Source: Escherichia coli
GTDB taxonomy: Bacteria; Pseudomonadota; Gammaproteobacteria; Enterobacterales; Enterobacteriaceae
NCBI RefSeq assembly: GCF_003790525.1
Contig: NZ_CP033635.1
Direction: 5' to 3' (one strand)
Length of the DNA: 64,000 nucleotides
This document shows, one piece after another, positions 2,246 through 60,622 of the stretch. How positions within the stretch are numbered: the stretch's first letter is position 1; every line of letters starts with the position of its first letter. Position numbers and translations under genes: made by a program. The notes under the pieces were generated by a model, which was given only the letters and a program-made list of their open reading frames with translations, was not told the origin of the DNA and searched no databases.

Positions 2246-2257
2246 TAAGGACATTAT

Positions 2258-2890: not shown

Positions 2891-2893
2891 ATT

Positions 2894-5275: not shown

Positions 5276-5285
5276 TTGTGACCTA

Positions 5286-5316: not shown

Positions 5317-5322
5317 CGTCAT

Positions 5323-7208: not shown

Positions 7209-7295
7209 CTACTGAGAAGAATGAGTACTAACATTCAGGTTATACAGATATTTAAACAATACCCTGCAATTTACAAAGTAATACTCATTGCGATT

Positions 7296-7337
7296 TCTTA
7301 ATTTAAGAAAGCGCAAGGAACGTTTACCCTTGCGCTT
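7296..7337 (-). terminator. Stem-loop terminator between convergent uxuR and yjiC
   Basis: gcgcaagg / ccttgcgc stem with 9-nt loop; on the minus strand followed by a U-rich tract (UUUCUUAAAUU). Confidence 0.45.
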
Positions 7338-7348
7338 ATCATAATAAG

Positions 7349-8122: not shown

Positions 8123-8174
8123 AAGTAATATCCATTTGATGAGACTGATAACAAATCCTGTAAAGGGCACGTTC

Positions 8175-8215
8175 AGTCCCCTCGCCCCTTTGGGGAGAGG
8201 GTTAGGATGAGGGGA
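8175..8215. repeat. GC-rich palindromic intergenic repeat, copy 1
   Basis: agtcccctcgcccctttggggagagggttaggatgagggga; near-identical copy at 12919-12959. Confidence 0.5.
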
Positions 8216-8444
8216 AATGACTGTAGCCATTACCCTGCCCTATTGCCTTCCTGGACTGGGGAGAAAAACAGTGACTGAATCGCTCATAAACAGGTTTGTC
8301 AGCAATCTGGTTAGATGCGGTTATTTATTTTCAAACTATACCATTAGCACTGGAAGTTGGCACGTACAGGTGGGCAAAAAAACGAAAACTGGTCAACCAA
8401 ATATCAGTTTGATTGACCAGTAAGTCTGTAGGGTAATCAGTTAG

Positions 8445-9905: not shown

Positions 9906-9985
9906 CGTAAACTCCAGAATCCGTCTTCAGAGAGTGACGGCAAGGAAGAAGGAACCGGCACGGCGCGCAGCCATGCCGGTGGATA

Positions 9986-36780: not shown

Positions 36781-39700
36781 CAGGCGCTCTCCTTATCTTG
36801 TGCAAAGAACGCCCAGGCCACTTTGTAGTCGTCTTCGCGATCCGGCTTGATAAACGGTGCCTGCCAGGTGACGGTACGGCGCTCGCCTTCGTCGCTGCGG
36901 GTATAGTCATCAAAGGTAACGCTGACGGTACCGGTTTGCAGATGTTTGACATCATCCCAGCCGATGGCTTGATCGGTGCAGTCACCGCCGGTCCAGTCCG
37001 GGCTGTCGACGTTAAAGACAAAGCCGTTTTTCAGGTCAGCTTTACGCGCGGTACGAGGCAAGCCAACGCCCACCAGCCCTTTGCTTGGGGTAAAGATAAT
37101 GCGACCGTTTTGATCGTACCAGGTGTCCGCTTCGTACTGGCGCATCACCGGGAACTGAATACGGTAGATGGCGAGTAGTTCTTCGAGGGTTAGCCCCAGC
37201 GCCTGCGCCACCAGCACGTCGATTTCCACCAGCGCCTGACGGCGGCTGTAGTCGGAGCGTAAGGCGCAGTTACGCTGCCATTCTGGGGTCAGATTGGTGA
37301 AGAAATCCTGGGGGAGCTGTGGGAGATCGCGGCTCCAATATTGTATTTTAAATTCTGAGGAATAAATGGAACACCACAATTTTTTATAATGCTCTGTTAT
37401 ACTAACCAAAGCCATCGACCTTGCATGTAAAGAGGCTCTAAACTTCTCATTACTTAATAATGGAAGTTGATTAACTAATGACTGATTCGCATGCCCCATG
37501 CCAGTACACTTGACTCTATAATCTACGACAATGGACAAAGACATCGAAAAGAAATCAAGTAAATCATAGTCATGTTTAAAAATAGTGCTTAGACACGTAT
37601 TAATATGAGAAATACCGGGAGGTATTATAGTTGCGATGAAAGTTCGTTCAGAAGTTGAACCTATCATTTCCCGATTAACAAATCTATAGCCATTAGTCAC
37701 AGGAAAGACATTACCATCCCAAGAAACTGTCGGAATTCGATTTAGAAAATCGGAATACTCGCAATTAGGAATATAATTAACCCTAGGCATATAATTATCA
37801 GGAATAGTCATCAAATCAATGGAGTCATAGTCACTATTTAATTTACATAAAGTCCGTGGCGTTTTGTAATAAGCATTCCCCACAAAGAAATGTGGTCCAG
37901 ATAATATCCATTGTGAAATTCCAGAGGGGAATTCCGTTTTCCTTTTAGTTGTACCATCTCTTTGAGCAAATGTTTCATCAAACATCACTGTAGAATAATA
38001 ATTATTTTTTATTGAAGATAGTTTTTTTGATTTAACATCAAATTTACGTAAAACTTCCAATAATTGTACTGTATGTAAAGCTGGAAGCCTTGCGTGCAGT
38101 GCAGGTGTTGAATTATCATCAAATATCCCCGCAAACAAACGTAACTCATCAATAGTAATTGTTAATACTCTTGATTTATGGGGTGATATATTCCAATTTA
38201 TTTTCAGTTTATCCCCATTGTAAGATTCTTCCTTGATACCAGGAATTTCCCCTTGATTATCATGCAAAATACTTGAATCTATTGTATACACAGAGAACAA
38301 ATTTGACATGTGTGTAAATGAAGGCGATTCTTGCAATGGACCATAAATATTAATACTAAATGTTGTTGCATGATGAACATCGGGAAAAAGCCCTAATTCA
38401 TTTTGAAATTGATAATGGTCACGCAAACGGCAGTAAATTTTGGCACGAAGTTCCCCCGCCTTGCTATCATCATAAACTCCATCAGGGTGCAATAACCCTG
38501 AAACACCATGTTCAGAAATAAGTCGCCATGAGACTGGTAAAAAACATTTATATAGATTTGTTTTTTGCCCTAACAAGCATGAAAAATTTTGCTGACTATT
38601 TAGATAGTTCTGTAATCCAACGGCAGATTCAAACTCACTTCGCCATGCATCTTCTAATCCATAGACTCGTGCAAAAGATTCTTCTCGGAGAGAAGATATA
38701 TTGGCAGCGCTAAGATTGTGCAGTACAAGCTCAGGTTTATAATCTCCCAATATTCCGCGTTCTTCCCATACAACTTTTAGCCACGGCGGGTTTCCGAGCA
38801 TCAGGTCAAAACCGCCGCGCTCGGCAAACAGGTCGCAGAACTCCAGATCCCAGTGGAAGAAACGGTACTGCTTTCTCAGGGCATCGACAATCGCCAGACG
38901 CGGCAAATGACGGAACAACACCTCGGTTTTCAGACGACCTGCGCCGGAAAACAGTGAAGACTCTTCTCGCAGCAGACCTTCTTCGGCAAACAGATCGCCG
39001 GTGGTGTGCTCCGCAACTTCAGTGACTTTTTCCGTGATTACAATCCCGTCGAGCAGGGTTTCAATCTCAAACAACCAGGTGCCGCGATCCGGTAGCTCAT
39101 CGGCTTTGTCGATCGGCCAGAACCACAGCGCGCACCAGTAGTCCATCACCCAACGCAGCTTCTGGTAGGCACTGTTATCTTCAAGACGACCACTGAAGGT
39201 TTCATCTTTACTGCTCAGCGAAGAACGCGTCTGCTCGCTGTTTTCTGCCGGCCACACCGGGTAGCTGTCGGCGGTTTTCAGACGTTCTGCTTTAAGTTGC
39301 TGGCGATAGGTGTTCCACAGAGCTTCCACCTTTTCGCTGATACGCTGCACATCAGCAATCTCATGCCCGGCAAAGCTTTTAATAAACTCTTTGCGCCAGC
39401 TGTCCAGGGCTTTGAAGTCATCCGGATAACGCTGCTTAACGGTTTTATCGCTGTAGTTAGCCATACCGCCGTCGGGCAGCAGGAAGTGAAAAATCTGCGT
39501 CTCTTCACGCGGCGTGTTCATCGCCAGTTCGACCGGCTCGCTGTTAAGCCAGCTCGGATCTTTGGCTTTTTTGTAGGTCAGTTCACTCTTGTTGAACACC
39601 TGACGGCGCGCGCCCACCAGCGAGTTACCGCAGTGCAGCTGGTAACCAAACCACGGTACAAAGGCATCGCCACTGATGGCGTTCAGCCACAGCGACACTT

Positions 39701-41702
39701 CCGCCAGTTCCACCGCCACCGGGTTTAAGTCCACGCCGAAAACGTTGTTGTCGGCAATGTACATTTTCACCCGCTGTAACTCCTGGGTGTAACGATCCTG
39801 CGGAATACGGCGACCTTCCGCCTGCTGCTTGTGGAACAGATACGCTTCCGCCAGCTGGTTGATGGCTTCGTTAAGGAACGCCGCGCTGCCCATCGCCGGT
39901 TCGCACACGGTGAGGTTTAAGATGGCATCAGCTTTAGCGTGCAGATCGGTAATCGGATCAATTTGCTCTTTAAACAGTTCTTTCAGGGCATATTTAACCA
40001 GTGAGCGGGTCAGCACTTCCGGGGTGTAATAAGAGGCAGATTTCTCACGGTCGCGCCCGGCCATACGGTAGATAAAACTGCCTTTGCGGTGAATGCGCAG
40101 ACTGCCGTCTTTCTCGTAGACCTTCTCGTCTTCGTGGTATTTGCCAATCTCATCCTTACTGACGAAGTAACCCGTCTCCAGCTCGTTAAACTCTTCCCCG
40201 GCTTTCTTCACCTCGTAGAGATCTTCGCTGGCGAAGAATCCGCGATAGGAGAGCAGCGCCTCATACACCGCACCCAACTGGTTGATACCCAACTGGCGAT
40301 AAGAAATACGTCCGCGGCGGTTAAAGCGCCCTTTGCCCGGGCGGCTTAACGACATCGCCTGGATAATCTGTTGCAGGGTTTCGTTACGGAATACCACGCG
40401 GTTAAGAATGCGCGTGTTGTTGGCATCAAACAGATGACTTTCCAGACGCGGGACGCTGAACTGATGACTATGGATGGTGATCCGGTCGCCGCTCTCCAGG
40501 TCACTCTGCATTTTCACGCCGCCGTTGTAGCCTTCGCGCACCAGTTTAAACAGCATATTCAGGCTGTCGTGGAAGTAGCGCCCGTTGCGATCTTCTTCGC
40601 TGGTCAGCGGGATCATCTCCAGATCGCGCAACGTTTCCAGGCTGTAACCTTGCAGATAGGTTTTGGCTGTCATTGGCGCATAACCCAGCTCCGGGCGCGC
40701 TTCAATGTAGAACAGGAACAGCAGGCGGTACATGTAACGCAGACATTCGCGGCTCAGTTCATCCGGGTCCACCGCACGGTTACCGGTATAGTTTGCCAGG
40801 CCACGGTCGATCAGATAATGCATCGCTTCGTTGCCCAACAACTCTATGCTTTCGCGCAGGGCATATTTCAGATCTTCCGAAACACCAAACGCATGTTTGT
40901 GCGAATTGTCATCCAGCGAGTCAAGATATGGTGCCCCACTGCCCGGCAGCAGCGAATCTTTATGTAGCAACACTGCCGTCGCTTTCAGCGTATCCGTTTC
41001 ACGACGACTTAAAATCTCTTCAAAATCAAAACGTAGCAGACGGTTTTGCGCCCACTTAGTACGGTCCAACAACAATAGCTGACGGTTACCGAGCAGCAGC
41101 ACAAAACGCGGCGGTTCATTTTGGGTGAAGACCGCCGTAGAGAGCAGATCCTGCCAGCTGCGATATTCACCGTTGGCTTTTTTGCGCAGGCTGTCGCGCT
41201 TATGTTTGTCGGTATCCGCCGGGAATTGCGCGGTCAGTAAGGAGAGCGCCAGCGGATCCAGCGTTCCTTCTTCCTGATCGTGTGCTTCAACAATCCACAG
41301 CCACGGGCTACCGTCAGTGCTGTTGTAACGCGCCAGTACTGGCAGTGGTGTATCGTCATCCAGCATTTGGATCTGCGGCGTAATTTCGTAGCCCAGCGCC
41401 TTTAACAATGGCTGCCAGCGATTACGTTGATCGGCCAGACGCTGCGGGATCTGACGCTGTTTTTCGTGCTCGGCAAGTTTGCGGAAAAACTCAGTCGCCA
41501 GACTGTTAAACTGGTTCCACGGAGCGCGGTATCCCGGCTCTACGTCTTTGCCCTGTTCACGAGCGGCACGCTCCGCTTCACGCGCTGCATTTTCCTGGGC
41601 TATCCAGGGTTCCAGCACATCGCGGATATCACTGGTGAATACCTCACCCAAATAGTGGTTAGAGTAAAATTCGTTTTCGTTATTAATACCGACCAGCGCC
41701 AT
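36780..41702 (-). CDS. Large amino-methyltransferase (N6-adenine or N4-cytosine, 1640 aa); DrmMI/PglX-like
   Basis: SAM-binding motif I VCEPAMGSAAFL and catalytic motif IV GNPPW in gamma-class order; starts 2 nt after the SNF2 gene stop. Confidence 0.8.
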   Translation of the reverse strand: MALVGINNENEFYSNHYLGEVFTSDIRDVLEPWIAQENAAREAERAAREQGKDVEPGYRAPWNQFNSLATEFFRKLAEHEKQRQIPQRLADQRNRWQPLLKALGYEITPQIQMLDDDTPLPVLARYNSTDGSPWLWIVEAHDQEEGTLDPLALSLLTAQFPADTDKHKRDSLRKKANGEYRSWQDLLSTAVFTQNEPPRFVLLLGNRQLLLLDRTKWAQNRLLRFDFEEILSRRETDTLKATAVLLHKDSLLPGSGAPYLDSLDDNSHKHAFGVSEDLKYALRESIELLGNEAMHYLIDRGLANYTGNRAVDPDELSRECLRYMYRLLFLFYIEARPELGYAPMTAKTYLQGYSLETLRDLEMIPLTSEEDRNGRYFHDSLNMLFKLVREGYNGGVKMQSDLESGDRITIHSHQFSVPRLESHLFDANNTRILNRVVFRNETLQQIIQAMSLSRPGKGRFNRRGRISYRQLGINQLGAVYEALLSYRGFFASEDLYEVKKAGEEFNELETGYFVSKDEIGKYHEDEKVYEKDGSLRIHRKGSFIYRMAGRDREKSASYYTPEVLTRSLVKYALKELFKEQIDPITDLHAKADAILNLTVCEPAMGSAAFLNEAINQLAEAYLFHKQQAEGRRIPQDRYTQELQRVKMYIADNNVFGVDLNPVAVELAEVSLWLNAISGDAFVPWFGYQLHCGNSLVGARRQVFNKSELTYKKAKDPSWLNSEPVELAMNTPREETQIFHFLLPDGGMANYSDKTVKQRYPDDFKALDSWRKEFIKSFAGHEIADVQRISEKVEALWNTYRQQLKAERLKTADSYPVWPAENSEQTRSSLSSKDETFSGRLEDNSAYQKLRWVMDYWCALWFWPIDKADELPDRGTWLFEIETLLDGIVITEKVTEVAEHTTGDLFAEEGLLREESSLFSGAGRLKTEVLFRHLPRLAIVDALRKQYRFFHWDLEFCDLFAERGGFDLMLGNPPWLKVVWEERGILGDYKPELVLHNLSAANISSLREESFARVYGLEDAWRSEFESAVGLQNYLNSQQNFSCLLGQKTNLYKCFLPVSWRLISEHGVSGLLHPDGVYDDSKAGELRAKIYCRLRDHYQFQNELGLFPDVHHATTFSINIYGPLQESPSFTHMSNLFSVYTIDSSILHDNQGEIPGIKEESYNGDKLKINWNISPHKSRVLTITIDELRLFAGIFDDNSTPALHARLPALHTVQLLEVLRKFDVKSKKLSSIKNNYYSTVMFDETFAQRDGTTKRKTEFPSGISQWILSGPHFFVGNAYYKTPRTLCKLNSDYDSIDLMTIPDNYMPRVNYIPNCEYSDFLNRIPTVSWDGNVFPVTNGYRFVNREMIGSTSERTFIATIIPPGISHINTCLSTIFKHDYDLLDFFSMSLSIVVDYRVKCTGMGHANQSLVNQLPLLSNEKFRASLHARSMALVSITEHYKKLWCSIYSSEFKIQYWSRDLPQLPQDFFTNLTPEWQRNCALRSDYSRRQALVEIDVLVAQALGLTLEELLAIYRIQFPVMRQYEADTWYDQNGRIIFTPSKGLVGVGLPRTARKADLKNGFVFNVDSPDWTGGDCTDQAIGWDDVKHLQTGTVSVTFDDYTRSDEGERRTVTWQAPFIKPDREDDYKVAWAFFAQDKESA

Positions 41703-41704
41703 GA

Positions 41705-44786: not shown

Positions 44787-47700
44787 TTATCCAGCGATAA
44801 TATAACTCCTAAGGTCATTACCCGGGGCAACAGCTCGCGCTCGCGTGTTTGCCAGCCGTTCAACTTGCTGCGGTACTCGTAGAGCAAAATCAAAGAAGGT
44901 GTCTTCAATACAGCGCCAGTAGCTAAGCCCCATGTCGAGCAGGACATAATGCTGACTGCCATCGCTGAAGGTGACTGTCAGTTCTCGTCCATGCTCCGTA
45001 CTCTGGTTATCCCCCGTTAACCAGCTAATTGCTCCCAGCCACGCTGGCCCCAGATATCCTTCTTCAAGTAAAGTGGTCACAACCTGCTGACGATCTTCCT
45101 CATTAAGCCACGCGTTATAGAGAGCGTCGTGTTGGCGAGAGTTGTAATCCAATTTTTTGACGCAAACAGTGAGGCTGGCGCGTTCCGCCATTCCCTGTTC
45201 AACCAGCTCAGTTAAGATTTCACCTAACAAACGCGCCGTGAATGGGCTATTAAGATAACGATCGCTGTACTCAACATGCGTTATCTCTTTGTGGCGGGTA
45301 AATGCCTGCTTCCAGCCAGCGTGCTGTTGCGTGACTAACGACCAGAAACGCGAACCAAAACCTTCCAGCGGCCCGTCCAGTTGTTCGCAGAGATTGATGC
45401 GCACCGCCCCGGTGGGTAAGGCGGGCAGTAAATCTTCTGCACTTAAGATCTGACCCAAGAAGGTTTTTCCGGACGTTCCTTTAAGTGTCACTACTGGTGA
45501 AGACGCACTTTGTCCCCATAATTCACCAGGTGCAACGGTAGCGCTGTCGTCTGCGGCCCACTGTTGGCTTTGCCCTTCGCGAGTCACCTGCGCAAGCCAG
45601 CGTCCCTTTCCTTGCATGAGTTGCGCAGTGGCAATGGATTTCACTTGTAAGCGTCCTCCCGGCATCGCCGCCAACGCGGAAAGCTGATGTCTGGAGCTAT
45701 CAGTTAAGTTTGCCAACGGCGTGGCCACCAGCAACTCAACATGCCCACCGGAGGAGGCAAACTGGAGCAACTCTTTAAATAATGGCCATTGGGCAAAATC
45801 CCACTGTTCCTGCGGCCCCGCAAGAACCAGCGAGCAGGAGTCATAAATCTCGCTGTTCAGGCATTGCGCAATACGTAAACTCAGCGGGTTAGTTTCAACC
45901 CGGCTACCATCGCCGAAGTACTGATATTCTGGCGCGAGGTTAAGTCGCTGCAACCGTACATTGGTAAGCAGGGTTAATGCATGGTGACGATCTAATCTGT
46001 TGACATAATGCTGACTGTCGTAGCTGAGCAAGCAGTGGTGACAGAATTTATCGCAACTGCAATCGAGCAATTTTCTGGCGTAATTAAAGACATCAGCCCA
46101 ATGGTCGATCAATTGCACTGCATAACCTGCACCACCCGCATTATTGTCGTAAATGAAGATGGAATATCCGGTATAGCCATTGATATCGCGCGCTTGCTGC
46201 GTCGTCACGCCCAGCTCAGTATTTTCGATACCCAATTTATGCGCTAACCCTTCACGCAAAGCGACCGCAAGGGATCGCGCGGCAACCTCATCACGGATCA
46301 ACAGGCCATTATCATCATTGAGTTGCAGCTCAACCATATCTGTACGACTGCTATACCCCAACCACAGATCTTTATGCACATGACCGTGGCACAATTTATT
46401 GCTCCCCTGACGATCGTTACTGCCCCCTCGCAACAGGTAATGCGTATTTTCCCTCTCTGGGTTCTTAAGATTTTCAGGGGTACGCTGGGGTTGATTTTGA
46501 GATTCTGCCCGACCACATGAGAGGCAAATTGCGTAGCCGTGCCCAAATTCCCCTTCACTGAAGTGGAACAATTCCCCACTATGGCTAAAACGGTAACGTC
46601 CTAGCCCAGCATCGGGTAAAGAAACCCACACCGAAGACGGTACAAGAACACGTGGATCTTTCCAGGGAAGTTGTGCAGGCATGGATACATCATTATGCGC
46701 CTGATAACGGATATCTGTCGCAAAACCAACAGGCTGTAAATAACGCTTCACATCAAGTTGCTGTATATCCGCTTTGCAGTGACTACATTCGACAGGACGG
46801 GTAGTACTGGTTGCCCCCGCACCACATTTACGACAATGCCAGAACCACGGAATATGATGATCGCCTGACAGCTCCTGCCCGCTGGCAAGTACCTTGCCAA
46901 GCATAATGCCCGAGGAACGATATACTTTTCCGCCCAATACCACATCTGCACCTGGAGCATACTCGCGTAATGCTGTAGGCAAATCACGGCTGGGCAATTT
47001 TTCAATACGACGAGAAAAGCTTTCTCCCCCTTCATTAGGGTCAGCCTGAGTGGCTTTTATTGCGCGACGTTTTTCCAGCTCATCTGCCGTCAGATAATTG
47101 AAATTGACGACGCCAACCGGGAAACCATGCCCCGGCAGGAACGCTTCACTAATGAGTTTAGAAAACAGATATGCACCGCGATAATCACGAAGCTGATAAG
47201 CGATGGCTTTACCTGCTGGCGTTTCTTCCCACGCGCTGTTATCCGCCTTCAACGCTTCGATATTTTCCAACAGTATCGCAAGTTGGCTTCTCCAGCGGAT
47301 ATCAACCTGCTGCATCATTGCTTGTGTGCGGGTCAAGAGCTGGGTTGCCGTCAATGACATCAGGACGGTTCCCTGAGTAAGGCGTTTAAGTTTATCCGCC
47401 AGCTGATCGGCCTGGTTATTTAACCAATGGAGAAAACGAAGACACTGGCTCTCATCACCTTCAAAGAACCATTTGCAACTCAGTTTTGTCGCATCAGGAA
47501 CTTCAGCTCGTAAAAACAGACCTAAAACCAGGGCATTAACATGTCGTTGAACAATACTGCTGCTCCCAAAACGAACCCGTGGCGCACTGGCAGTAGTGTT
47601 GAACGCCCAGAGGGGGTCTTTGAATACCTCCATTCCATGCGCCGTGTTTTTACATAACGTAATGGCAGCAGATGCACTCTCTCCACGTCGACCCGCGCGG

Positions 47701-51110: not shown

Positions 51111-54100
51111 ACTCCTGCTTGTTCAAAATAATATTGATAGATTACCCCTAATTGCTGCGGGGCTTGCTGATAGTGGAATTCAAAAAGCGCAGACAGTTGA
51201 TGTATCAAGTTATTATCTTTTTGGGTTAACAGCGCTGCGACTAACATCAAATTAAAACGTTTTTCAAGCCGTGAGTGATATTTATTTTTAATCCAAAGCT
51301 TATTAAAAACAGATTTTAACTCTGGAGTAATCGCACTAGACCAAAGTTCTTTAGGGAAGATACTGATACGCCCAAAGCTGTCGGGGTTCCTTAATAGCAT
51401 CTGTTTAGCTTCATTAAACTGCTCACGACTAACAGTTGGCAAGACATTACAACCGGCTGGTAGGAGTTTGCTATATGTAAGTAACATATTCGCAATGGGA
51501 GCCAGACGACGATCGATATGTGCACGATGGTTCATAAAAGCAATAAAGGGTTGCAATATATGTAATGCTAATGTTTTATCGTTAATCTGTTTTTCCAGAT
51601 AAGCCCAACACTTTTGAAAAACATCTTTCCAGATTGAAACGGGAATCCATCCCCATGAAAAGGGTAATTCTTCCTGTATATCATAAATCGTATCGCTATC
51701 ACCAGAAAGACATGATGATATTAACAACTGAACAACTACGCGGTAATTACTCGAAATACCTCTGAACAAATCCAGATCCAGCAAGGATAAGCCATTATTC
51801 ATTTTGTATTTCTTAATATACTCCGTTAATAAACAGCAATAATTTTGCAAAGGATTGTTATCTATTTCAAAAATTAGCTCATTAAAATATTTTTTTCGCT
51901 GTTCGGAATCCGCTTCGCATAGAGCATTAAGTAATAAATCATTTGTCTGTAATACAGGTAGCCCCCATTTAATTACTGGTGCAATGCGAGCTGTACCATC
52001 AAGTTTCCCCACAATTAACCATGGGCTATCCTGAACATTCAGAGCTGAAAGATCATAAGCAAATTCATCTTTTTTTAGCAACGATATGTGTAAGCCAGGA
52101 TCCTTAAGAGAAATAGCATCAACAACCAGCTCGTCTATTCTATTTGCAGGAAAAACAACAGAATTTTTTATATCAACCAGTAACCCTTGATCGTGTTCAA
52201 TAAAACTACCATCGTAGCGTTTAATACTGAGTGTTGCTTTATCCTTTCCAAATCTGTCAGAGTAAAAATCAACACATAATGTACTATTGCTGCTCCATGC
52301 ACATGCCAGCATAGCATTTAGCAAATTATAGTTCTCATAAAGTGAAATTTGTTTTAATTTGTCATTGCATCCTGATAAAAGAGGAAGGTCGGCATGTAAA
52401 TAACGGAATTTTTCAGCTACTGGATTTTCATCCAACAACTCGATATTAAGATATCCTCTTCCAGCACAAGATATGGTTAACAACTCAGCATCTATTCCAT
52501 GCAAATGCGCTATAGATGCCACACCATCAAAATGAACAGAACCATCATGAGTTACAAATCGGCCACCGCTAACCGGCTTAGGTAATAATAGTTTAAGATT
52601 AGAACCATCTTTCCAGGAGACCCGTAAATCAACGGTATTTTCCAGCATCTCCGATGAATTATAATAAATAGCACACTCGTTTTGTGAATAATCGGACTTA
52701 AGTGTTACTTTTTCATTGTTTGAATATTTGTCAATTCTAGTATCCGTTATACCAGAAAGCATTATGATGCCTTGCTGAGCACTCTCAGGTATAATATTAA
52801 TATCGAAGTCAGCTGGTAAAACTACAACTTTACCGCTAAATAAAACCTCATCATTAACTATTCGTCTGACTTCTATCTGTCCTTTTGGCATTTTTGATGC
52901 GACAGAATACCAGGCATTGTTACCTGAACGAATGGAACGCCAAAAAAGTTCTTTCTCCGGTACAATGCCATATTGCAGATCCTTTTTCCAACCGATCTTC
53001 GGCCAGGCTCGATGGACAGGATAATCCGATTTAACCAGTTCAACTTCTGTCGATTTAATATAATATTCAATCGCAGAATCATAAAGTTGCTGGGTGCGAA
53101 TTGTACAAACTGCACCATCATGTAAAACAACGCTAAATACTCCACTTATTTTAGTTAAGCTGCGTTCACTGTTTTTCAGCAACCTTGGGATATCAAACTC
53201 ACCTTCTCCACTAATATCTAAATGGCTATTTTTCGGTAGCGAAATAAACAGAGCATTTAGCCTGGAACTCACAGACCCCATACCGACAAGTTTTAGCTGC
53301 GATTCACTCTCATTCATCGCTTCAAAAACCCAGGGGAGTTCTTCAGTAAGTTCATAACCGCCTTTTGGAATTGTGTGGCCTAACAGAATTGGACCTTCAT
53401 GAAGCGACAACGAGATTTCGGCCATTGCATCTGCACCAGAGAGCTTTTGCATCGCAATAGGTAATAACTCGACCCGCCAATCTTGCTGCTCATAACGGCT
53501 TAGCATTGCCAACCTTGCCCCGCCATTTCTCCATTTTCCTGAAATGATGAGTCGGGTCTGCTCCGGCTGAATATTGCATTCAAACAAAGAGGTTAACTGT
53601 TCTGTACGCATTGTGGCCGGGAATCGGAACCGGGCATCACAATACCAACTGTCATCAACATCGACCCAGATTCTTTCAACCTGAAGACTACTTGCACTGC
53701 GTATTTCAGAAGATTGAGAAAGTAATCGCCTTACAATCTCTGCAGCATTCGCTTCGGGGAGAACGAGTGGAAGTTGAAGGTGCCAGTCTGGAGAGAGCTT
53801 ACGTAATGCAGAAACGGGATCACTGCTTTGAGGTGGATGCTCACTAAGTAATCGGCAGAGAGTCTCGCAGAATTCACCGGCTATTTCATAGACCAGTTCG
53901 TTTTGCATTGTGACAGGAATCGTATCGCCTAATTCTTGTGCAATTTTAGCGGCAGGATATTGAGATGCTTGCCCACGAAGCGCCTGATATATCCTTCTGA
54001 AATAGGTAATCAAATAACCGCTCTCATTTTCAATCATGCGGATAGGTAAACCACCTTCACAAGCCAGTGTATGCAGATAACCCGAAGCTTGCCCCAGGTT

Positions 54101-54460
54101 TCTTATCTTTCTTTTCCAGTAGCGAATGCCATCATTAACCAGCTTCTGTCGATGAACATACGGAACTTTCCAGTCAATAGAATCTAAAATTGTGTCCCAT
54201 TTAGGGTGTCCGACCGTATGAGTCCGGCGGATAAACTCTGCGGCATATATGCTAAATAGAACATCGCTATAGGAAATGAATATCGTTCTTGGATAACTAC
54301 GGGGGGCATATGTACGCAGTAGTTCTGCCAAACTTTCGTACTCTGTATCAGTACAACGGTAAGCATATAACGCCCGTCCATCAGCTCCGGATAATGAACG
54401 GCGACTAAAAAACATGTTAAGCCATTGCAAAAGTGGGTTAACTGGAGTTTTCACAAGCAA
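51101..54460 (-). CDS. Large protein of unknown function (up to 1119 aa; true start uncertain); DruH-like partner of the helicase
   Basis: Long intact ORF with no recognisable catalytic motif; AT-rich codon usage; translationally coupled to the downstream helicase. Confidence 0.6.
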   Translation of the reverse strand: MLVKTPVNPLLQWLNMFFSRRSLSGADGRALYAYRCTDTEYESLAELLRTYAPRSYPRTIFISYSDVLFSIYAAEFIRRTHTVGHPKWDTILDSIDWKVPYVHRQKLVNDGIRYWKRKIRNLGQASGYLHTLACEGGLPIRMIENESGYLITYFRRIYQALRGQASQYPAAKIAQELGDTIPVTMQNELVYEIAGEFCETLCRLLSEHPPQSSDPVSALRKLSPDWHLQLPLVLPEANAAEIVRRLLSQSSEIRSASSLQVERIWVDVDDSWYCDARFRFPATMRTEQLTSLFECNIQPEQTRLIISGKWRNGGARLAMLSRYEQQDWRVELLPIAMQKLSGADAMAEISLSLHEGPILLGHTIPKGGYELTEELPWVFEAMNESESQLKLVGMGSVSSRLNALFISLPKNSHLDISGEGEFDIPRLLKNSERSLTKISGVFSVVLHDGAVCTIRTQQLYDSAIEYYIKSTEVELVKSDYPVHRAWPKIGWKKDLQYGIVPEKELFWRSIRSGNNAWYSVASKMPKGQIEVRRIVNDEVLFSGKVVVLPADFDINIIPESAQQGIIMLSGITDTRIDKYSNNEKVTLKSDYSQNECAIYYNSSEMLENTVDLRVSWKDGSNLKLLLPKPVSGGRFVTHDGSVHFDGVASIAHLHGIDAELLTISCAGRGYLNIELLDENPVAEKFRYLHADLPLLSGCNDKLKQISLYENYNLLNAMLACAWSSNSTLCVDFYSDRFGKDKATLSIKRYDGSFIEHDQGLLVDIKNSVVFPANRIDELVVDAISLKDPGLHISLLKKDEFAYDLSALNVQDSPWLIVGKLDGTARIAPVIKWGLPVLQTNDLLLNALCEADSEQRKKYFNELIFEIDNNPLQNYCCLLTEYIKKYKMNNGLSLLDLDLFRGISSNYRVVVQLLISSCLSGDSDTIYDIQEELPFSWGWIPVSIWKDVFQKCWAYLEKQINDKTLALHILQPFIAFMNHRAHIDRRLAPIANMLLTYSKLLPAGCNVLPTVSREQFNEAKQMLLRNPDSFGRISIFPKELWSSAITPELKSVFNKLWIKNKYHSRLEKRFNLMLVAALLTQKDNNLIHQLSALFEFHYQQAPQQLGVIYQYYFEQAGVCH

Positions 54461-54671
54461 CCTGCCTTCCTTTGATACAATTCGTAACAGGTTACTATCA
54501 TCATAAAAAAGCTCAACCCGATGAACTCGCTAAAAATGAGACAAATCATTTATATCTCGAAAAAACTTGTTACAATCATGAGCGCTACACCGAACTTAAC
54601 CATATAAATTATGTGTGTTTTGTTTATTTTTTAAACAATTACAACTATCCATTATTTACACAGGTATCAAA

Positions 54672-56324
54672 ATGTTAGCGCAGCTTTTTGAGCAGTTGTT
54701 TCAATCGATAGACTCTACACTGATCACCAATATTTTCATCTGGGCTGTTATATTCGTATTTTTATCAGCGTGGTGGTGTGACAAAAAAAATATACATAGT
54801 AAGTTTAGAGAATATGCTCCAACCTTAATGGGGGCATTAGGTATTCTGGGTACTTTCATTGGTATTATTATTGGGTTACTCAATTTTAATACTGAAAGTA
54901 TTGATACCAGCATCCCCGTATTATTAGGCGGCCTAAAAACAGCATTCATTACAAGCATTGTAGGTATGTTTTTTGCCATTTTATTTAATGGAATGGATGC
55001 TTTCTTTTTTGCCAATAAACGAAGTGCGTTAGCAGAAAATAACCCTGAATCTGTTACACCTGAACATATCTATCATGAATTAAAAGAGCAGAACCAGACT
55101 CTGACTAAATTAGTCTCGGGTATTAACGGTGATAGTGAAGGTTCTCTTATTGCTCAAATAAAATTACTACGTACTGAGATTAGCGATTCCTCGCAGGCAC
55201 AATTAGCTAATCACACTCATTTCAGTAATAAGCTTTGGGAACAACTTGAACAATTTGCAGATCTAATGGCAAAAGGTGCTACAGAACAAATTATTGATGC
55301 TTTACGACAAGTCATTATTGATTTTAATGAAAATTTAACTGAACAGTTTGGTGAAAACTTTAAAGCACTTGATGCCTCTGTAAAAAAACTTGTTGAGTGG
55401 CAGGAAAATTATAAAACGCAAGTTGAGCTGATGTCAGAACAATATCAACAAAGTGTCGAGTCTCTGGTTGAAACAAAAACTGCGGTTGCCGGGATTTGGG
55501 AAGAATGTAAAGAAATTCCTCTGGCTATGTCTGAACTGCGTGAAGTGCTTCAGGTGAACCAACATCAAATCAGCGAACTCTCCCGCCATTTAGAAACCTT
55601 TGTCGCCATCCGCGATAAAGCTACAACCGTATTACCTGAAATACAGAACAAAATGGCTGAAGTGGGTGAACTGCTGAAATCCGGAGCTGCAAATGTTAGT
55701 GCATCTCTTGAGCAAACCAGCCAGCAAATACTTCTTAATGCAGATTCAATGCGCGTGGCCCTGGATGAAGGTACCGAAGGATTCAGACAATCGGTTACCC
55801 AAACACAACAAGCATTTGCCTCGATGGCACATGATGTCAGCAATTCCTCCGAAACTCTAACCAGCACGTTAGGTGAAACAATTACTGAAATGAAACAAAG
55901 TGGTGAAGAATTCCTGAAGTCACTAGAGTCGCACTCGAAAGAATTGCATAGAAATATGGAACAAAATACGACTAATGTAATTGATATGTTCAGTAAGACT
56001 GGTGAAAAGATTAACCATCAACTATCCAGTAATGCCGATAATATGTTTGATTCAATCCAGACATCATTTGATAAGGCAAGTGCAGGGCTGACTTCTCAAG
56101 TCAGAGAATCAATTGAAAAATTTGCTCTATCCATCAACGAGCAGTTACATGCTTTTGAGCAAGCAACTGAACGTGAGATGAACCGTGAAATGCAATCATT
56201 AGGTAATGCTCTGCTTTCAATCAGCAAAGGTTTTGTCGGTAACTATGAAAAACTTATTAAAGATTACCAAATAATTATGGGGCAGTTACAAGCATTAATT
56301 TCTGCTAATAAACATCGAGGGTAA
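54672..56324 (+). CDS. zorA: Zorya ZorA (MotA/ExbB/TolQ-like membrane protein with long coiled-coil tail)
   Basis: N-terminal multi-TM region followed by a long, heptad-rich, low-complexity tail; start taken at ATG 54672 (track ORF begins at an upstream GTG). Confidence 0.7.
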   Translation: MLAQLFEQLFQSIDSTLITNIFIWAVIFVFLSAWWCDKKNIHSKFREYAPTLMGALGILGTFIGIIIGLLNFNTESIDTSIPVLLGGLKTAFITSIVGMFFAILFNGMDAFFFANKRSALAENNPESVTPEHIYHELKEQNQTLTKLVSGINGDSEGSLIAQIKLLRTEISDSSQAQLANHTHFSNKLWEQLEQFADLMAKGATEQIIDALRQVIIDFNENLTEQFGENFKALDASVKKLVEWQENYKTQVELMSEQYQQSVESLVETKTAVAGIWEECKEIPLAMSELREVLQVNQHQISELSRHLETFVAIRDKATTVLPEIQNKMAEVGELLKSGAANVSASLEQTSQQILLNADSMRVALDEGTEGFRQSVTQTQQAFASMAHDVSNSSETLTSTLGETITEMKQSGEEFLKSLESHSKELHRNMEQNTTNVIDMFSKTGEKINHQLSSNADNMFDSIQTSFDKASAGLTSQVRESIEKFALSINEQLHAFEQATEREMNREMQSLGNALLSISKGFVGNYEKLIKDYQIIMGQLQALISANKHRG

Positions 56325-56330
56325 TCGATC

Positions 56331-57038
56331 ATGGATAAGATTATAGGGAAACAATTACCTAAAAAAGATCAAGATAATGAACACTGGGTATCCATGTCAG
56401 ACCTAATGGCAGGGCTGATGATGGTTTTTATGTTCATATCTATTGCTTATATGCACTACGTACGTATTGAAAAAGAAAAAATTAAAGAAGTTGCCGTAGC
56501 CTACGAGAATGCTCAGTTACAGCTTTATAATGCTCTGGATATTGAGTTTGCAAAGGATTTGCAAGACTGGGATGCAGAGATCGATAAGCAGACTCTGGAG
56601 GTTCGATTTAAATCACCGGATGTTTTATTTGGCTTAGGAAGCACAGAGCTTAAACCAAAGTTTAAACTCATTCTTGACGACTTCTTTCCTCGCTACCTAA
56701 AAGTTCTTGATAATTATCAAGAACATATTACTGAAGTCCGCATTGAAGGTCACACAAGTACTGACTGGACTGGAACAACGAATCCTGATATTGCTTATTT
56801 TAATAATATGGCACTATCACAAGGTCGTACACGTGCAGTATTACAATACGTTTATGATATAAAAAATATCGCGACACACCAACAATGGGTTAAAAGTAAA
56901 TTTGCCGCAGTAGGTTATTCATCTGCACATCCCATTCTTGATAAAACCGGCAAGGAGGATCCTAATCGCTCTCGTCGTGTCACCTTCAAAGTTGTAACAA
57001 ATGCCGAGTTGCAGATTAGAAAGATTATTCAGGAGTAA
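56331..57038 (+). CDS. zorB: Zorya ZorB (MotB/OmpA-like peptidoglycan-binding protein)
   Basis: N-terminal TM helix with Asp (SMSDLMAGLMMVFMFI) and C-terminal OmpA-like region; 6 bp after zorA. Confidence 0.7.
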   Translation: MDKIIGKQLPKKDQDNEHWVSMSDLMAGLMMVFMFISIAYMHYVRIEKEKIKEVAVAYENAQLQLYNALDIEFAKDLQDWDAEIDKQTLEVRFKSPDVLFGLGSTELKPKFKLILDDFFPRYLKVLDNYQEHITEVRIEGHTSTDWTGTTNPDIAYFNNMALSQGRTRAVLQYVYDIKNIATHQQWVKSKFAAVGYSSAHPILDKTGKEDPNRSRRVTFKVVTNAELQIRKIIQE

Positions 57039-57041
57039 GAG

Positions 57042-58145
57042 ATGAAATTATCTATCGACATTTCAGAACTTATTCAATTAGGGAAGAAAATGTTACCAGA
57101 AGGAGTCGATTTTTTTCTGGATGAATCCCCTATTGACTTTGATCCTATAGATATTGAGTTATCCACGGGTAAAGAAGTTAGTATCGAAGATCTTGACCCT
57201 GGTAGCGGGCTAATCTCTTATCATGGCCGCCAGGTTCTTTTATATATTAGGGACCATTCAGGGCGTTATGATGCGGCTATCATCGATGGCGAAAAAGGAA
57301 AACGTTTTCATATTGCCTGGTGCAGAACTCTTGATGAAATGCGCCATAAAAATCGATTTGAAAGGTATCATGCAACTAACCGCATAGATGGTTTATTCGA
57401 AATTGATGATGGTTCAGGCCGGAGCCAGGATGTTGATTTACGGGTATGTATGAATTGTCTGGAACGACTTAATTACAAAGGAAGTATTGATAAACAAAGG
57501 AAAAGAGAGATTTTTAAATCATTCTCATTAAATGAGTTTTTTTCAGATTATAGTACCTGTTTTCGTCATATGCCTAAGGGTATCTATGACAAAACAAATA
57601 GTGGGTATGTCGAAAACTGGAAAGATATATCAAAATCAATACGAGAAAAGGCCAAGTATACTTGTAATGATTGTGGTGTGAATTTATCAACCGCCAAAAA
57701 CTTGTGCCATGTCCATCATAAAAATGGCATCAAATATGATAATCACCATGAAAACCTTCTTGTTCTGTGTAAGGATTGCCATCGTAAACAGCCCCTCCAT
57801 GAAGGTATATTCGTTACCCAAGCTGAGATGGCTATCATTCAACGTTTACGTTCCCAACAAGGGTTATTAAAAGCCGAATCCTGGAATGAAATATATGACC
57901 TGACTGATCCATCAGTACATGGTGATATTAATATGATGCAACATAAAGGCTTTCAACCTCCTGTTCCTGGGTTAGATCTTCAAAACTCAGAACATGAAAT
58001 TATTGCAACCGTAGAAGCAGCATGGCCAGGCCTTAAAATTGCAGTTAACCTTACTCCCGCCGAAGTCGAAGGATGGAGAATATATACCGTGGGTGAGCTG
58101 GTTAAAGAAATACAAACAGGAGCCTTTACGTCAGCAACGTTGTAA
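57042..58145 (+). CDS. zorE: Zorya type II ZorE (HNH endonuclease)
   Basis: HNH/zinc-finger motif CNDCGVNL...HVHHKNG...DNHHENLLVLCKDCH; 3 bp after zorB. Confidence 0.7.
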   Translation: MKLSIDISELIQLGKKMLPEGVDFFLDESPIDFDPIDIELSTGKEVSIEDLDPGSGLISYHGRQVLLYIRDHSGRYDAAIIDGEKGKRFHIAWCRTLDEMRHKNRFERYHATNRIDGLFEIDDGSGRSQDVDLRVCMNCLERLNYKGSIDKQRKREIFKSFSLNEFFSDYSTCFRHMPKGIYDKTNSGYVENWKDISKSIREKAKYTCNDCGVNLSTAKNLCHVHHKNGIKYDNHHENLLVLCKDCHRKQPLHEGIFVTQAEMAIIQRLRSQQGLLKAESWNEIYDLTDPSVHGDINMMQHKGFQPPVPGLDLQNSEHEIIATVEAAWPGLKIAVNLTPAEVEGWRIYTVGELVKEIQTGAFTSATL

Positions 58146-58971: not shown

Positions 58972-59613
58972 TTAATTTGCATCCATCAACGCTTTTAACT
59001 GCTCCGGCGAAAACGGTGGTTTGCGTCGGTGCAACATCGCATGGCAATTAGGGCACACAGGAAGCAAATCATTAACTGGATCCAGCTGGTAATCCTCTTT
59101 AATGGCTGAAAGCGGCACCAGGTGATGCATATGGATAAAACCCTCAGCGATATCGCCATAGATCTTCACCAGATCAACGCCGCATACGTTGCACTGGCAT
59201 CCATGATGTTCGACCGCTTTATCTCGGGCCTTTTTATCGCGTTCATAGCGGTTTACTGTCACCTTTATCGCCGCACCTTCAACGTATGTCTCCTGCGACG
59301 GCAACTCATCCGGGAACAGAACGTCGGCTATGGGAGCCGCAGCGGCTTTATCCTGATGAATATGAAATCCCTGCTCTATGAGTAGTTTGACGCATTTAGA
59401 TTTTATTCCGCCGGTGAAATCCGCAGGGGTAAATTGCGTCCCCGTCATCAATGTCGCTGCGATGCCAGCAATCGCCTTCGAGGGGTAACGTCGGCCATGA
59501 TATTCAATCTTATACAACCGCGCAGGCTGGAACTGATGAGTTTCTCCCGCATCCCATAAATGGATAGCTTCGATGATATACCGCCGCGGAAGATGATCGG
59601 GGAGTTTATTCAT
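58972..59613 (-). CDS. HNH endonuclease-domain protein (213 aa), McrA-like architecture
   Basis: C-terminal HNH motif CQCNVCGVDL...HMHHLVPLS...NDLLPVCPNCHAMLH; N-terminal putative DNA-recognition domain. Confidence 0.65.
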   Translation of the reverse strand: MNKLPDHLPRRYIIEAIHLWDAGETHQFQPARLYKIEYHGRRYPSKAIAGIAATLMTGTQFTPADFTGGIKSKCVKLLIEQGFHIHQDKAAAAPIADVLFPDELPSQETYVEGAAIKVTVNRYERDKKARDKAVEHHGCQCNVCGVDLVKIYGDIAEGFIHMHHLVPLSAIKEDYQLDPVNDLLPVCPNCHAMLHRRKPPFSPEQLKALMDAN

Positions 59614-59692
59614 GGAGAATGTCCTTATACGTTCTCAGAACAGGCAGCAAAAAAACAAATGAGATCAAGGTAATATATCTTCACTTGCAGGC

Positions 59693-60622
59693 TTGAACAG
59701 CAGAAAATTTGCGAGCATGATCGCAACTATTTCACTGCCAGGGATATCAATGGCTTCCAGTAAATCGCTACAGCAGGCAATCGCCAATATAAAAATCTGG
59801 CACAAGGGTGAACAGCGCGCGCCGCATAAACCATTGTTACTGCTATACGTATTAGCGGGATACCTGAATGGGCATCCGCGCCTTTTCGATTATGGATTGG
59901 AAATCTACGAACCTCTGCACAATTTACTGGAACGTTTTGGGCCACAGCGTTCACAGTACCGACCTGATATGCCGTTCTGGCGATTACAAGGCGACGGATT
60001 CTGGCAATTACACAATGCCGAGCTTTGCTCAACAGCAGGGAGCAGCCGACAACCGCCAGTGAAGGAACTGAACGAATACCACGTTGCAGGCGGTTTCGAT
60101 GAACAGCACTACGCCCTGGTAACCGGCAATAAAAAACTCATCAATACTCTGGCGCAACAGATACTCGAAGCGCACTTCACCGAGAGTATTCAGGAAGAAA
60201 TTGCTGACGAGCTGGGTTTTGATCTCCAGCAAATCCGTAAACAGCGTGACCCGTTATTTCGCAAAAATGTATTACGCGCTTATAACTACCAGTGCGCGAT
60301 ATGTGGCTTTAATATGCGCCACGACGACACCACCGTCGCGCTGGAAGCGGCGCATATAAAATGGAAACAGCACGGCGGTCCTTGTGAAATTCCTAATGGC
60401 CTGGCGCTTTGCGCAATTCACCATAAAGCCTTTGATAAAGGATCGATTGGCCTGGATGAAAATATGCGGGTACTGGTCTCGGATGCGGTAAACGGCGGAG
60501 GGATCGTTGAGAGATTATTCTGGGATTTTGATGGGAAAACTATTGCGTTGCCACAGGTGCGTAAAAATTACCCTTTTGAGGGGTTTGTGGAGTGGCATCG
60601 AAAAGAGGTTTTTAGGGGGTGA
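59693..60622 (+). CDS. HNH endonuclease-domain protein (309 aa) with N-terminal putative DNA-recognition domain
   Basis: HNH motif CAICGFNM...EAAHIKW...NGLALCAIHHKAFD; start may be at a downstream Met. Confidence 0.65.
   Translation: MNSRKFASMIATISLPGISMASSKSLQQAIANIKIWHKGEQRAPHKPLLLLYVLAGYLNGHPRLFDYGLEIYEPLHNLLERFGPQRSQYRPDMPFWRLQGDGFWQLHNAELCSTAGSSRQPPVKELNEYHVAGGFDEQHYALVTGNKKLINTLAQQILEAHFTESIQEEIADELGFDLQQIRKQRDPLFRKNVLRAYNYQCAICGFNMRHDDTTVALEAAHIKWKQHGGPCEIPNGLALCAIHHKAFDKGSIGLDENMRVLVSDAVNGGGIVERLFWDFDGKTIALPQVRKNYPFEGFVEWHRKEVFRG

What the first reader, a model, noticed from the sequence alone, without database searches (positions are those of the whole stretch)
44787..54460. Druantia type III-like pair directly upstream of the DISARM-like operon
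A 2107-aa helicase/DUF1998 protein is translationally coupled (10-nt overlap) to an upstream protein of up to 1119 aa with no recognisable motif. This two-gene layout matches what is described for Druantia type III (DruH plus DruE). A terminator-like hairpin with U-run (44629-44667) separates it from the SNF2 gene, so the two modules are probably separate transcription units placed back to back.
Basis: partly seen in the sequence, partly recalled or inferred. Interest (0 to 1): 0.8.

Follow-up and report, generated by a model that had tools for sequence, protein, structure and literature searches.

The report
Known E. coli Druantia III defence pair
These two genes are the already well-studied Escherichia coli Druantia type III anti-phage system (DruH plus the giant helicase DruE), sitting in a published three-system defence island, so the call is correct but not new.

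Summary
The window is E. coli chromosome, 100% identical to strain SMS-3-5. The two minus-strand ORFs are real and are Druantia type III. They give full-length matches to PADLOC DruE3 (2180 bits) and DruH3 (2541 bits) and to NCBIfam YjiT_fam (980 bits). Near-identical proteins have solved structures (DruH 9tud; DruE 9tu7-9tuc). Each module has already been deleted or cloned and tested against phages.

Corrections:
- The conserved druE start is the ATG inside TGATG at 51101. This gives 2104 aa and a 1-nt overlap, not 10 nt.
Its stem is lost in Enterobacter, Yersinia and Serratia relatives, while its 3' arm, T-run and downstream bases are the most conserved part of the spacer.
- A different stem-loop right after the druE stop (44753-44779) is the one kept by compensatory changes.
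- A published ARMADA-only clone starts at the base after the druE stop, so the 223-nt spacer probably carries armA's own promoter.

Termination between the modules remains unmeasured. Verdict: correct, ordinary, already known.

The parts
51101..54460 (-). druH (YjiT family; 1119 aa from TTG 54460, or 1117 aa from the conserved GTG 54454)
   Evidence: ORF. PADLOC DruH3 PDLC00041, 2541 bits, covering profile positions 1-1117 of 1117. NCBIfam YjiT_fam, 980 bits against a cut-off of 150. PDB 9tud 'DruH', 2526 bits against a self-score of 2584. No Pfam domain. All 5 published residues tested (R1064, K1067, N672, Y733, D735) are present at those positions.
44787..51101 (-). druE (YprA/MrfA-family SF2 DExH helicase with an MZB/DUF1998 module and a C-terminal PLD-like region; 2104 aa from the conserved ATG 51101; the longest ORF starts at 51110, giving 2107 aa)
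   Evidence: ORF. PADLOC DruE3 PDLC00037, 2180 bits, covering profile positions 4-2051 of 2055. Pfam DEAD, Helicase_C and MZB. PDB 9tu7-9tuc, 4862 bits against a self-score of 4906. Start codon evidence.
54461..54671 (.). AT-rich divergent control region between druH and zorA2, with promoter-like sites on both strands
   Evidence: RefSeq places the zorA2 start at window 54672. Promoter-like hexamers lie on the minus strand at 54678-54651 and 54635-54608, and on the plus strand at 54472-54501 and 54549-54576. These are consensus matches only. Published druHE clones use this region as the 'native putative promoter' (10.64898/2026.05.13.724758).
44753..44779 (-). Conserved GC-rich stem-loop starting 7 nt after the druE stop codon; candidate 3'-end structure of the druHE transcript
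   Evidence: -18.3 kcal/mol, z = -2.5. It is present in Siccibacter (-20.8) and in the Enterobacter MAG (-27.8). 98% of cells pair, and 3 of 9 pairs change on both sides. No U-run follows it directly, so it is not a canonical intrinsic terminator.
44634..44669 (-).
   Evidence: It folds in E. coli (-15.8 kcal/mol, z = -1.4) and is invariant within E. coli. The stem is lost in L008-L010 (-4 kcal/mol, z = 0). Helix 2 is 61% paired, and 7 of 9 pairs depart only by unpaired cells.
44620..44662 (-). Most conserved block of the druE-armA spacer (TCATGATATCTTTAAGGCCCTCTTTTTTATCGCAGTGTGCCG); probable cis-regulatory sequence for armA (promoter, operator or leader)
   Evidence: Column identity is 92-100% here, against about 80% in the druE 3' coding end and 59-70% in the flanking spacer. 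It occurs once in the window. It contains TGnTATCTT, which resembles an extended -10. The ARMADA-only clone, whose only upstream DNA is this 223-nt spacer, is active. Its function is inferred, not shown.

Best explanation
This is the E. coli 'cluster 11' / type III-A Druantia anti-phage system. druH and druE are two co-directional genes whose stop and start codons overlap (TGATG). They are transcribed divergently from Zorya II (zorA2-zorB2-zorE, 54672-58145, plus strand) and lie 223 nt upstream of ARMADA type II (armABCD, 44563-28328, minus strand), in the leuX-fim hypervariable defence island known as O-island 172 in EHEC.

How it works, taken from the 2025-2026 literature on alleles that are 98-99% identical. 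DruE is a dimerising SF2 DExH helicase of the YprA/MrfA family. It loads on exposed single-stranded DNA (3' tails or forks) of replicating or recombining phage genomes and unwinds 3'-to-5'. This clears the phage without killing the cell. DruH is a multi-Ig-domain partner required for defence that binds or processes single-stranded DNA. The four preprints differ on its role: infection sensor with dimer-dependent nicking, ATP-inhibited ssDNA binder, or 3'-5' exonuclease. Whether the C-terminal PLD-like region of DruE cuts DNA is also disputed between the preprints.

What was shown here: identity, domain content, motifs, gene layout and conservation. What is inferred from the papers: the biochemical steps.

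For: Identity:
- PADLOC DruE3 (2180 bits) and DruH3 (2541 bits), both end to end.
- NCBIfam YjiT_fam, 980 bits against a cut-off of 150.
- PDB DruH 9tud and DruE 9tu7-9tuc score 97.8% and 99.1% of the self-score.
- 100% DNA identity to SMS-3-5, and presence in 546 of 5426 complete E. coli genomes.

Domains and motifs:
- Pfam DEAD, Helicase_C and MZB; GSGKT, DEAH and QRAGRAGR.
- 14 of 15 published DruE contact residues and 5 of 5 DruH residues are present.
- SDRY and HGR in the C-terminal region are invariant in relatives at 70-99% identity.

Context:
- Zorya II matched by ZorA2 (1001 bits), ZorB2 (346) and ZorE2 (585).
- ARMADA genes are annotated and laid out as in 10.1101/2025.09.22.677730 and PMC12458937. 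SMS-3-5 is named as a carrier.

Function, from the literature.

Module structure:
- The druE-armA junction is intact in 527 of the 546 genomes with druHE.
- The same gene order, and the same spacer length wherever both genes are present, holds in five more genomes spanning Escherichia, Siccibacter, Enterobacter, Yersinia and Serratia.
- Siccibacter keeps ARMADA while having lost druH and the 5' third of druE.
- The ARMADA-only clone starts at window 44786.
Against: Nothing argues against the identity.

On mechanism, the four May-2026 preprints disagree:
- DruH is a nuclease in PMC13192584 and 10.64898/2026.05.13.724313, but not in 10.64898/2026.05.12.722862 or 10.64898/2026.05.13.724758.
- DruE is a nuclease in the first two, but not in the latter two.
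- A stable DruE-DruH complex is seen in one and not in another.

In this sequence there is no canonical PLD HxK(x)4D motif and no Pfam PLD hit in the C-terminal 400 residues. Nothing in my analysis measures transcription. The argument about vector orientation for the ARMADA clone rests on my own knowledge of the pBeloBAC11 lacZ-alpha region.
Confidence: 0.93

Rival explanations
1. druHE and armABCD form one six-gene system or operon. Transcription from the druH promoter reads through the 223-nt spacer, and the two halves depend on each other.
For: - All six genes are co-directional.
- The junction is intact in 527 of 546 E. coli genomes with druHE.
- Order and spacer length are conserved across several genera.
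- DruE and ArmC are paralogous YprA-like helicases (ArmC hits DruE3 at 348 bits).
- Strong synergy is published.
Against: - Each half defends on its own when cloned or when the other is deleted.
- The ARMADA-only clone carries only the spacer upstream.
- ARMADA occurs without Druantia in Siccibacter, in two Salmonella strains (PMC3681947) and in 17 E. coli genomes.
- Druantia III forms 15 clades, most of them without ARMADA.
- Partial read-through is not excluded and would be compatible with separate modules.
Confidence: 0.1
2. The 2107-aa protein is a DEAH-box RNA helicase that regulates flagellar motility through fliC (Z5898, the 'MAO island'). It would not be primarily a defence protein.
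For: PMC3681947 reported loss of flagella and lower fliC expression in EDL933 delta-Z5898. RefSeq labels some copies 'motility-regulating DEAH-box RNA helicase'.
Against: A later study found no effect of delta-druE on fliC Northern blots or on swimming in the same strain (10.64898/2026.05.13.724758). The biochemistry and cryo-EM show DNA substrates. The original mutant was a kan-cassette replacement directly upstream of armABCD, so polar or secondary effects are possible; that last point is my inference. The closest solved non-Druantia relative is the DNA repair helicase MrfA/YprA, 6znp.
Confidence: 0.04
3. The hairpin and T-run at 44634-44669 is a working intrinsic terminator that ends the druHE transcript.
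For: A 9-bp GC-rich stem is followed by C-U6 (-15.8 kcal/mol). The sequence is 100% conserved across E. coli lineages. There is a weak sub-threshold Rfam hit to a terminator-bearing sRNA model (suhB/mmgR, 23 bits against a gathering score of 41, E = 0.27), which is at chance level.
Against: The loop is 12 nt. z = -1.4, with 18 of 200 shuffles folding as well. In Siccibacter the stem is weakened, and in Enterobacter, Yersinia and Serratia it is absent, while the T-run and flanking bases stay invariant. That is the pattern of a DNA sequence element, not of an RNA structure. The hairpin also overlaps promoter-like hexamers (TTGTCA-16-CATGAT; TGnTATCTT). If armA's promoter lies upstream of it, an efficient terminator there would block ARMADA expression from the active clone.
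Confidence: 0.25

Closest known systems
Druantia type III (III-A) DruH-DruE of E. coli ATCC 8739, EDL933 and ECOR19 (PDB 9tud, 9tu7-9tuc)
   Same: It is the same system. The gene order, overlap, lengths, domains and named functional residues all match. The proteins score 98-99% of the self-score. [quoted passage not shown]
   Different: Only allelic substitutions, with 95-100% DNA identity among E. coli copies. The SMS-3-5 island has its own armB variable segment next door.
Druantia types I, II and IV (DruE1, DruE2, DruE4)
   Same: They share the DruE helicase/DUF1998 core. DruE1 scores 575 bits, DruE2 360 bits and DruE4 342 bits over parts of the protein.
   Different: The partner genes differ (DruABCD or DruMFG instead of DruH). 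According to PMC12458937 and 10.1101/2025.09.22.677730, the C-terminal nuclease-like domain also differs: a single non-PLD domain instead of tandem PLD-like domains.
DISARM class 1 (DrmA, DrmB, DrmC, DrmD, DrmMI)
   Same: DruE resembles a DrmA-DrmB fusion (helicase plus DUF1998) with an added PLD-like region comparable to DrmC. It belongs to the same YprA helicase superfamily.
   Different: The pair contains no methyltransferase and no SNF2 protein. DrmA models hit only about 50-90 residues, at 35-38 bits. DISARM is modification-based; Druantia III is not known to be.
MrfA/YprA DNA repair helicase (Bacillus subtilis, PDB 6znp)
   Same: SF2 DExH core plus the MZB/DUF1998 zinc module, and 3'-5' DNA translocation. 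phmmer E = 1.4e-19.
   Different: MrfA is 751 aa and works in mitomycin C repair with MrfB. DruE is nearly three times larger. It has about 770 residues between the DEAD (98-298) and Helicase_C (1072-1143) matches, a dimerisation element and a C-terminal PLD-like region.
ARMADA type II ArmC (window 30439-36780, the neighbouring paralogue)
   Same: Also a helicase of about 2100 aa from the YprA family with DUF1998. It hits DruE3 at 348 bits and is 23-34% identical to DruE over the helicase segments.
   Different: It works with an SNF2 helicase, a PglX-like methyltransferase and a GajB-like helicase. Its C-terminus is Vsr/HNH-like rather than PLD-like.

Membership tests
Druantia type III | DruE: a very large SF2 DExH helicase with a DUF1998/MZB module that matches DruE type III profiles over its full length | tested here: met
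   PDLC00037 DruE3, 2180 bits, protein residues 9-2105 on profile positions 4-2051 of 2055. Pfam DEAD, Helicase_C and MZB. GSGKT, DEAH and QRAGRAGR motifs.
Druantia type III | DruH: the subtype-specific partner protein (YjiT family) with no Pfam domain | tested here: met
   PDLC00041 DruH3, 2541 bits, covering profile positions 1-1117 of 1117. NF038336 YjiT_fam, 980 bits against a cut-off of 150. Pfam gives nothing at E <= 0.001. PDB 9tud 'DruH'.
Druantia type III | Two-gene layout with druH immediately upstream of druE on the same strand, and no other Druantia genes (druA-D, druM/F/G) | tested here: met
   ORF map. TGATG stop/start overlap, conserved in relatives. The neighbours are Zorya II and ARMADA II, not other dru genes.
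Druantia type III (subtype III-A) | Tandem C-terminal PLD-like domains in DruE, the distal one predicted to be active | tested here: inconclusive
   There is no Pfam PLD hit and no HxK(x)4D motif. SDRY (1946-1949) and HGR (2037-2039) are invariant, and they resemble the D-R-Y and H-x-R pocket residues reported for P. aeruginosa DruE. The fold assignment rests on published structures of a 99%-similar protein, not on a test made here.
Druantia type III | Confers anti-phage defence that requires both genes | not testable with these tools
   Published for the ATCC 8739, EDL933 and ECOR19 alleles. Not tested for this exact allele.
DISARM | DrmA + DrmB + DrmC core together with a methyltransferase (DrmMI or DrmMII), and DrmD or DrmE | tested here: not met
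   Within the druHE pair there is no methyltransferase or SNF2 gene. DrmA profiles reach only 35-38 bits on DruE. The neighbouring operon has DrmD-like and DrmMI-like genes, but it is classified as ARMADA II.
Rho-independent (intrinsic) terminator, for the hairpin at 44634-44669 | A stable GC-rich stem directly followed by a U-run | tested here: met
   9-bp stem, then C-U6, -15.8 kcal/mol. However, the loop is 12 nt and the z-score is only -1.4.
Rho-independent (intrinsic) terminator, for the hairpin at 44634-44669 | Base-pairing is maintained in diverged orthologous spacers | tested here: not met
   61% of cells pair, and 7 of 9 pairs are broken in relatives. No stem precedes the T-run in L008 or L009 (-3.4 to -4 kcal/mol, z about 0). 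Only three independent lineages were available.

The most novel reading that the evidence does not exclude
It could be a dedicated regulatory switch, either a promoter/operator or a terminator/antiterminator. Such a switch would set how much druHE transcription continues into armABCD and would couple expression of the two synergising YprA-helicase systems. Nobody appears to have described this element.
Probability: 0.12. Interest if true: 0.35.

Novelty: already known. Interest (0 to 1): 0.1.

Why it matters
As a discovery it matters little.

It does have some use as a check on annotation:
- It confirms that a sequence-only reader can call Druantia III correctly.
- It corrects the druE start codon.
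- It flags the RefSeq label 'motility-regulating DEAH-box RNA helicase' as probably outdated.
- It shows that a textbook-looking hairpin with a U-run can be a conserved DNA sequence element rather than a terminator.

The small open point is how transcription is organised across the 223-nt druE-armA spacer. That bears on how the two systems are co-expressed.

Tried and rejected
- Rfam scan of 44300-54900 at E <= 1. Only two sub-threshold hits (suhB/mmgR at 23 bits against 41; a snoRNA model). Rejected as chance.
- tRNA scan of the window, looking for the island's integration site. None found; leuX lies outside the window.
- Covariation within E. coli. The spacer is 99% identical in five lineages, so it is uninformative. 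Divergent loci were needed, and these gave only three independent lineages.
- A small ORF in the conserved block (ATG 44659 to TGA, 19 codons). It is kept in Siccibacter, but a 1-nt insertion in the Enterobacter/Yersinia/Serratia block shifts the frame while the nucleotides stay conserved. A conserved peptide is therefore unlikely.
- The invariant TTGAC after the first stem-loop as a -35 element. No conserved -10 lies at 16-18 nt. Left unexplained.
- The two hairpin loops share GATATCTT. An 8-mer match within 223 nt is near chance expectation by my own estimate. Dropped.
- Canonical PLD HKD motif search in DruE. None found.
- Transcript or transcription-start data for this spacer. None found in the papers read.
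- Not run, because solved structures of near-identical proteins exist: structure prediction, fold search and the large protein-database searches.
Full report
**1. Observation**

- The large protein has Pfam DEAD (98-298), Helicase_C (1072-1143) and MZB, the renamed DUF1998 (1615-1694).
- It carries Walker A GSGKT, DEAH and motif VI QRAGRAGR.
- The upstream protein has no Pfam domain.

**2. Identity**

- PADLOC models match both proteins end to end: DruE3 at 2180 bits and DruH3 at 2541 bits.
- NCBIfam names the smaller protein YjiT_fam (980 bits, cut-off 150).
- The PDB holds DruH (9tud) and DruE (9tu7-9tuc) chains that score 97.8% and 99.1% of the proteins' self-scores. These are allelic variants of the same proteins.
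- The DNA is 100% identical to E. coli SMS-3-5. The locus is in 546 of 5426 complete E. coli genomes.

**3. Context**

The RefSeq annotation of SMS-3-5 and PADLOC scans give the following layout.

| Window coordinates | Strand | Feature |
|---|---|---|
| 28328-44563 | - | armABCD: SNF2-like ArmA, PglX/type IIG-like methyltransferase ArmB, YprA-like ArmC, GajB-like ArmD |
| 44787-54460 | - | druHE |
| 54672-58145 | + | Zorya II (zorA2, zorB2, zorE) |
| 58972-60622 | -/+ | HNH gene and phosphorothioate-dependent restriction endonuclease gene |
| 60734-61732 | - | PDC-S11 candidate |
| 61859 onward | - | Wadjet type III (JetD3, 807 bits) |

- The left flank carries nanM and large ORFs that I read as the type 1 fimbrial genes, which I did not test. 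This places the island in the leuX-fim hypervariable region.
- This three-system array is published as O-island 172 of EHEC. SMS-3-5 and ATCC 8739 are named as carriers (10.1101/2025.09.22.677730; PMC3681947).
- The 'DISARM-like operon' is ARMADA type II (PMC12458937).

**4. How it works (from the literature; not tested here)**

- DruE is a dimerising YprA/MrfA-family helicase. It loads at 3' single-stranded tails or forks and unwinds 3'-to-5'. Defence is direct, without host killing.
- DruH is required for defence. It has Ig-like domains flanked by helical regions.
- DruH's role is variously reported as:
  - a phage sensor with dimer-dependent nicking (PMC13192584);
  - an ssDNA binder inhibited by ATP (10.64898/2026.05.12.722862);
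  - an indirect partner of DruE that is released on infection (10.64898/2026.05.13.724758);
  - a 3'-5' exonuclease that prepares substrates for DruE (10.64898/2026.05.13.724313, on the P. aeruginosa system).
- Two groups see DruE nuclease activity through the C-terminal PLD-like pocket. Two do not.
- In this window, 14 of 15 DruE residues and 5 of 5 DruH residues named in PMC13192584 are present.
- There is no canonical HxK(x)4D motif. SDRY (1946-1949) and HGR (2037-2039, 2104 numbering) are invariant in relatives down to 70% identity. They resemble the D-R-Y and H-x-R pocket residues reported for the Pseudomonas protein.

**5. Start codons**

- druE. ATG 51101 lies inside TGATG, 10 nt after AGGAG. 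It is the RefSeq start, the published numbering and the size of the 6315-bp Z5898 clone. It is also the only ATG conserved in the Enterobacter, Yersinia and Serratia loci, where the upstream codon is TTG. The likely product is 2104 aa with a 1-nt overlap.
- druH. TTG 54460 is the annotated start. GTG 54454 is the only start shared by all relatives.

**6. Separate transcription units?**

- Within E. coli the druE-armA junction is intact in 527 of the 546 genomes with druHE. The spacer is about 99% identical, so it carries no information on structure.
- One scan of species-representative genomes returned five more loci: Escherichia sp., Siccibacter colletis, an Enterobacter MAG, Yersinia proxima and Serratia sp..
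- Four of the five have the full Zorya-Druantia-ARMADA order. Siccibacter lacks druH and Zorya. All five have a spacer of about 223 nt, even where DruH is only 63% and DruE 77% identical.
- Stem-loop after the druE stop (44753-44779). It keeps pairing through compensatory changes: 98% of cells pair, 3 pairs change on both sides, and energies are -18 to -28 kcal/mol with z about -2.5.
It loses its 5' arm in the distant loci (61% paired; -4 kcal/mol, z about 0). Its 3' arm, T-run and the next 15 nt form the most conserved block of the spacer, at 92-100% column identity. That pattern fits a DNA sequence element, not an RNA stem.
- The block contains TGnTATCTT, which resembles an extended -10. It overlaps a scanned promoter-like site.
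- Published constructs:
  - The active ARMADA-only clone begins at window 44786, the first base after the druE stop (primer FN1701).
  - By my reading of the vector overhangs, the insert points against the lac promoter, and the T7 promoter was removed. On that reading the spacer must supply armA's promoter. This rests on my knowledge of pBeloBAC11, not on a tool result.
  - The ATCC 8739 Druantia deletion removes 44787-54415 and leaves the spacer intact.
- Other evidence for separable modules:
  - Siccibacter has lost druH and the 5' third of druE but keeps ARMADA.
  - ARMADA alone occurs in Salmonella and in 17 E. coli genomes.
  - Druantia III occurs widely without ARMADA.
- Conclusion. The modules are separable and armA probably has its own promoter. 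Whether druHE transcription terminates in the spacer, and where, is unmeasured. Only three independent lineages support the structural comparison.

**7. Rivals**

- One obligate six-gene system: unlikely, for the reasons in section 6.
- DruE as a motility-regulating RNA helicase (PMC3681947). The claim survives as a RefSeq product name on some copies. It was not reproduced in the same strain, and the protein acts on DNA in all four biochemical studies.

**8. Verdict**

The profile test it proposed passes overwhelmingly, and the experiments it proposed have been done by others. This is an already known system in an already described island. The new material here is minor: the start-codon correction, the conserved stem-loop, and the conserved block that undermines the proposed terminator. 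Interest is low.

Noticed in passing
window 44620-44662 (-): A block of about 43 nt in the druE-armA spacer is 92-100% conserved across five genera. That is more than the adjacent druE coding end. It contains TGnTATCTT, a T6 run and ATCGCAGTGTGCCG. It is probably an undescribed cis-regulatory element for armA.
   Followed up: partly
window 44753-44779 (-): A GC-rich stem-loop 7 nt after the druE stop codon is kept by compensatory substitutions in Siccibacter and in the Enterobacter/Yersinia/Serratia group. The invariant GTTGAC directly after it is unexplained.
   Followed up: yes
window 44694-44712 (-): A perfect inverted repeat, ATGCGCA-N5-TGCGCAT, lies between the two hairpins. It is present in E. 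coli, partly present in Siccibacter and absent in the distant relatives. It could be an operator-like site.
   Followed up: no
window 36780-41702 (-), armB: Most E. coli genomes match only 91% of the ARMADA operon, in two pieces. This points to a swapped segment, presumably the target-recognition part of the ArmB methyltransferase. Only 40 of 534 records are >=99% identical to this allele. Li et al. also note armB as the variable gene.
   Followed up: partly
window 61859-64000 (-) and beyond: A Wadjet type III system: JetD3 matches full-length at 807 bits, followed by a 1478-aa gene that is cut by the window end. A PDC-S11 candidate defence gene lies at 60734-61732 (-).
   Followed up: partly
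window 58972-60622: A divergent pair: an HNH endonuclease (58972-59613, minus strand) and a gene annotated as phosphorothioated-DNA-binding restriction endonuclease (59693-60622, plus strand). It looks like a type IV-like modification-dependent restriction module.
   Followed up: no
L007 (Siccibacter colletis) 1-12124: The Druantia module has decayed. druH, Zorya and the first 330 or so codons of druE are gone, while ARMADA II and the spacer are intact.
   Followed up: partly
window 44787-51101; RefSeq hits H11, H13, H18, H20 and others: Some RefSeq copies of DruE are named 'motility-regulating DEAH-box RNA helicase'. The name comes from a 2013 study that a 2026 preprint could not reproduce, so it is probably misleading.
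   Followed up: yes
E. coli genomes H1 (NZ_AP039429.1) and H2 (NZ_CP091712.1): IS1A and IS2 insertions interrupt the druHE region in otherwise identical islands. 16-23 matches lie on plasmids.
   Followed up: no
DruE residues 1701-1900 (window about 45400-46000): The first C-terminal PLD-like domain is the fastest-diverging part of DruE, at 56% identity to the Enterobacter-group orthologue against 75-95% elsewhere. Across the island the divergence is graded: DruH 63%, DruE 77%, ZorA 80% and ArmA 87.5% identity.
   Followed up: partly
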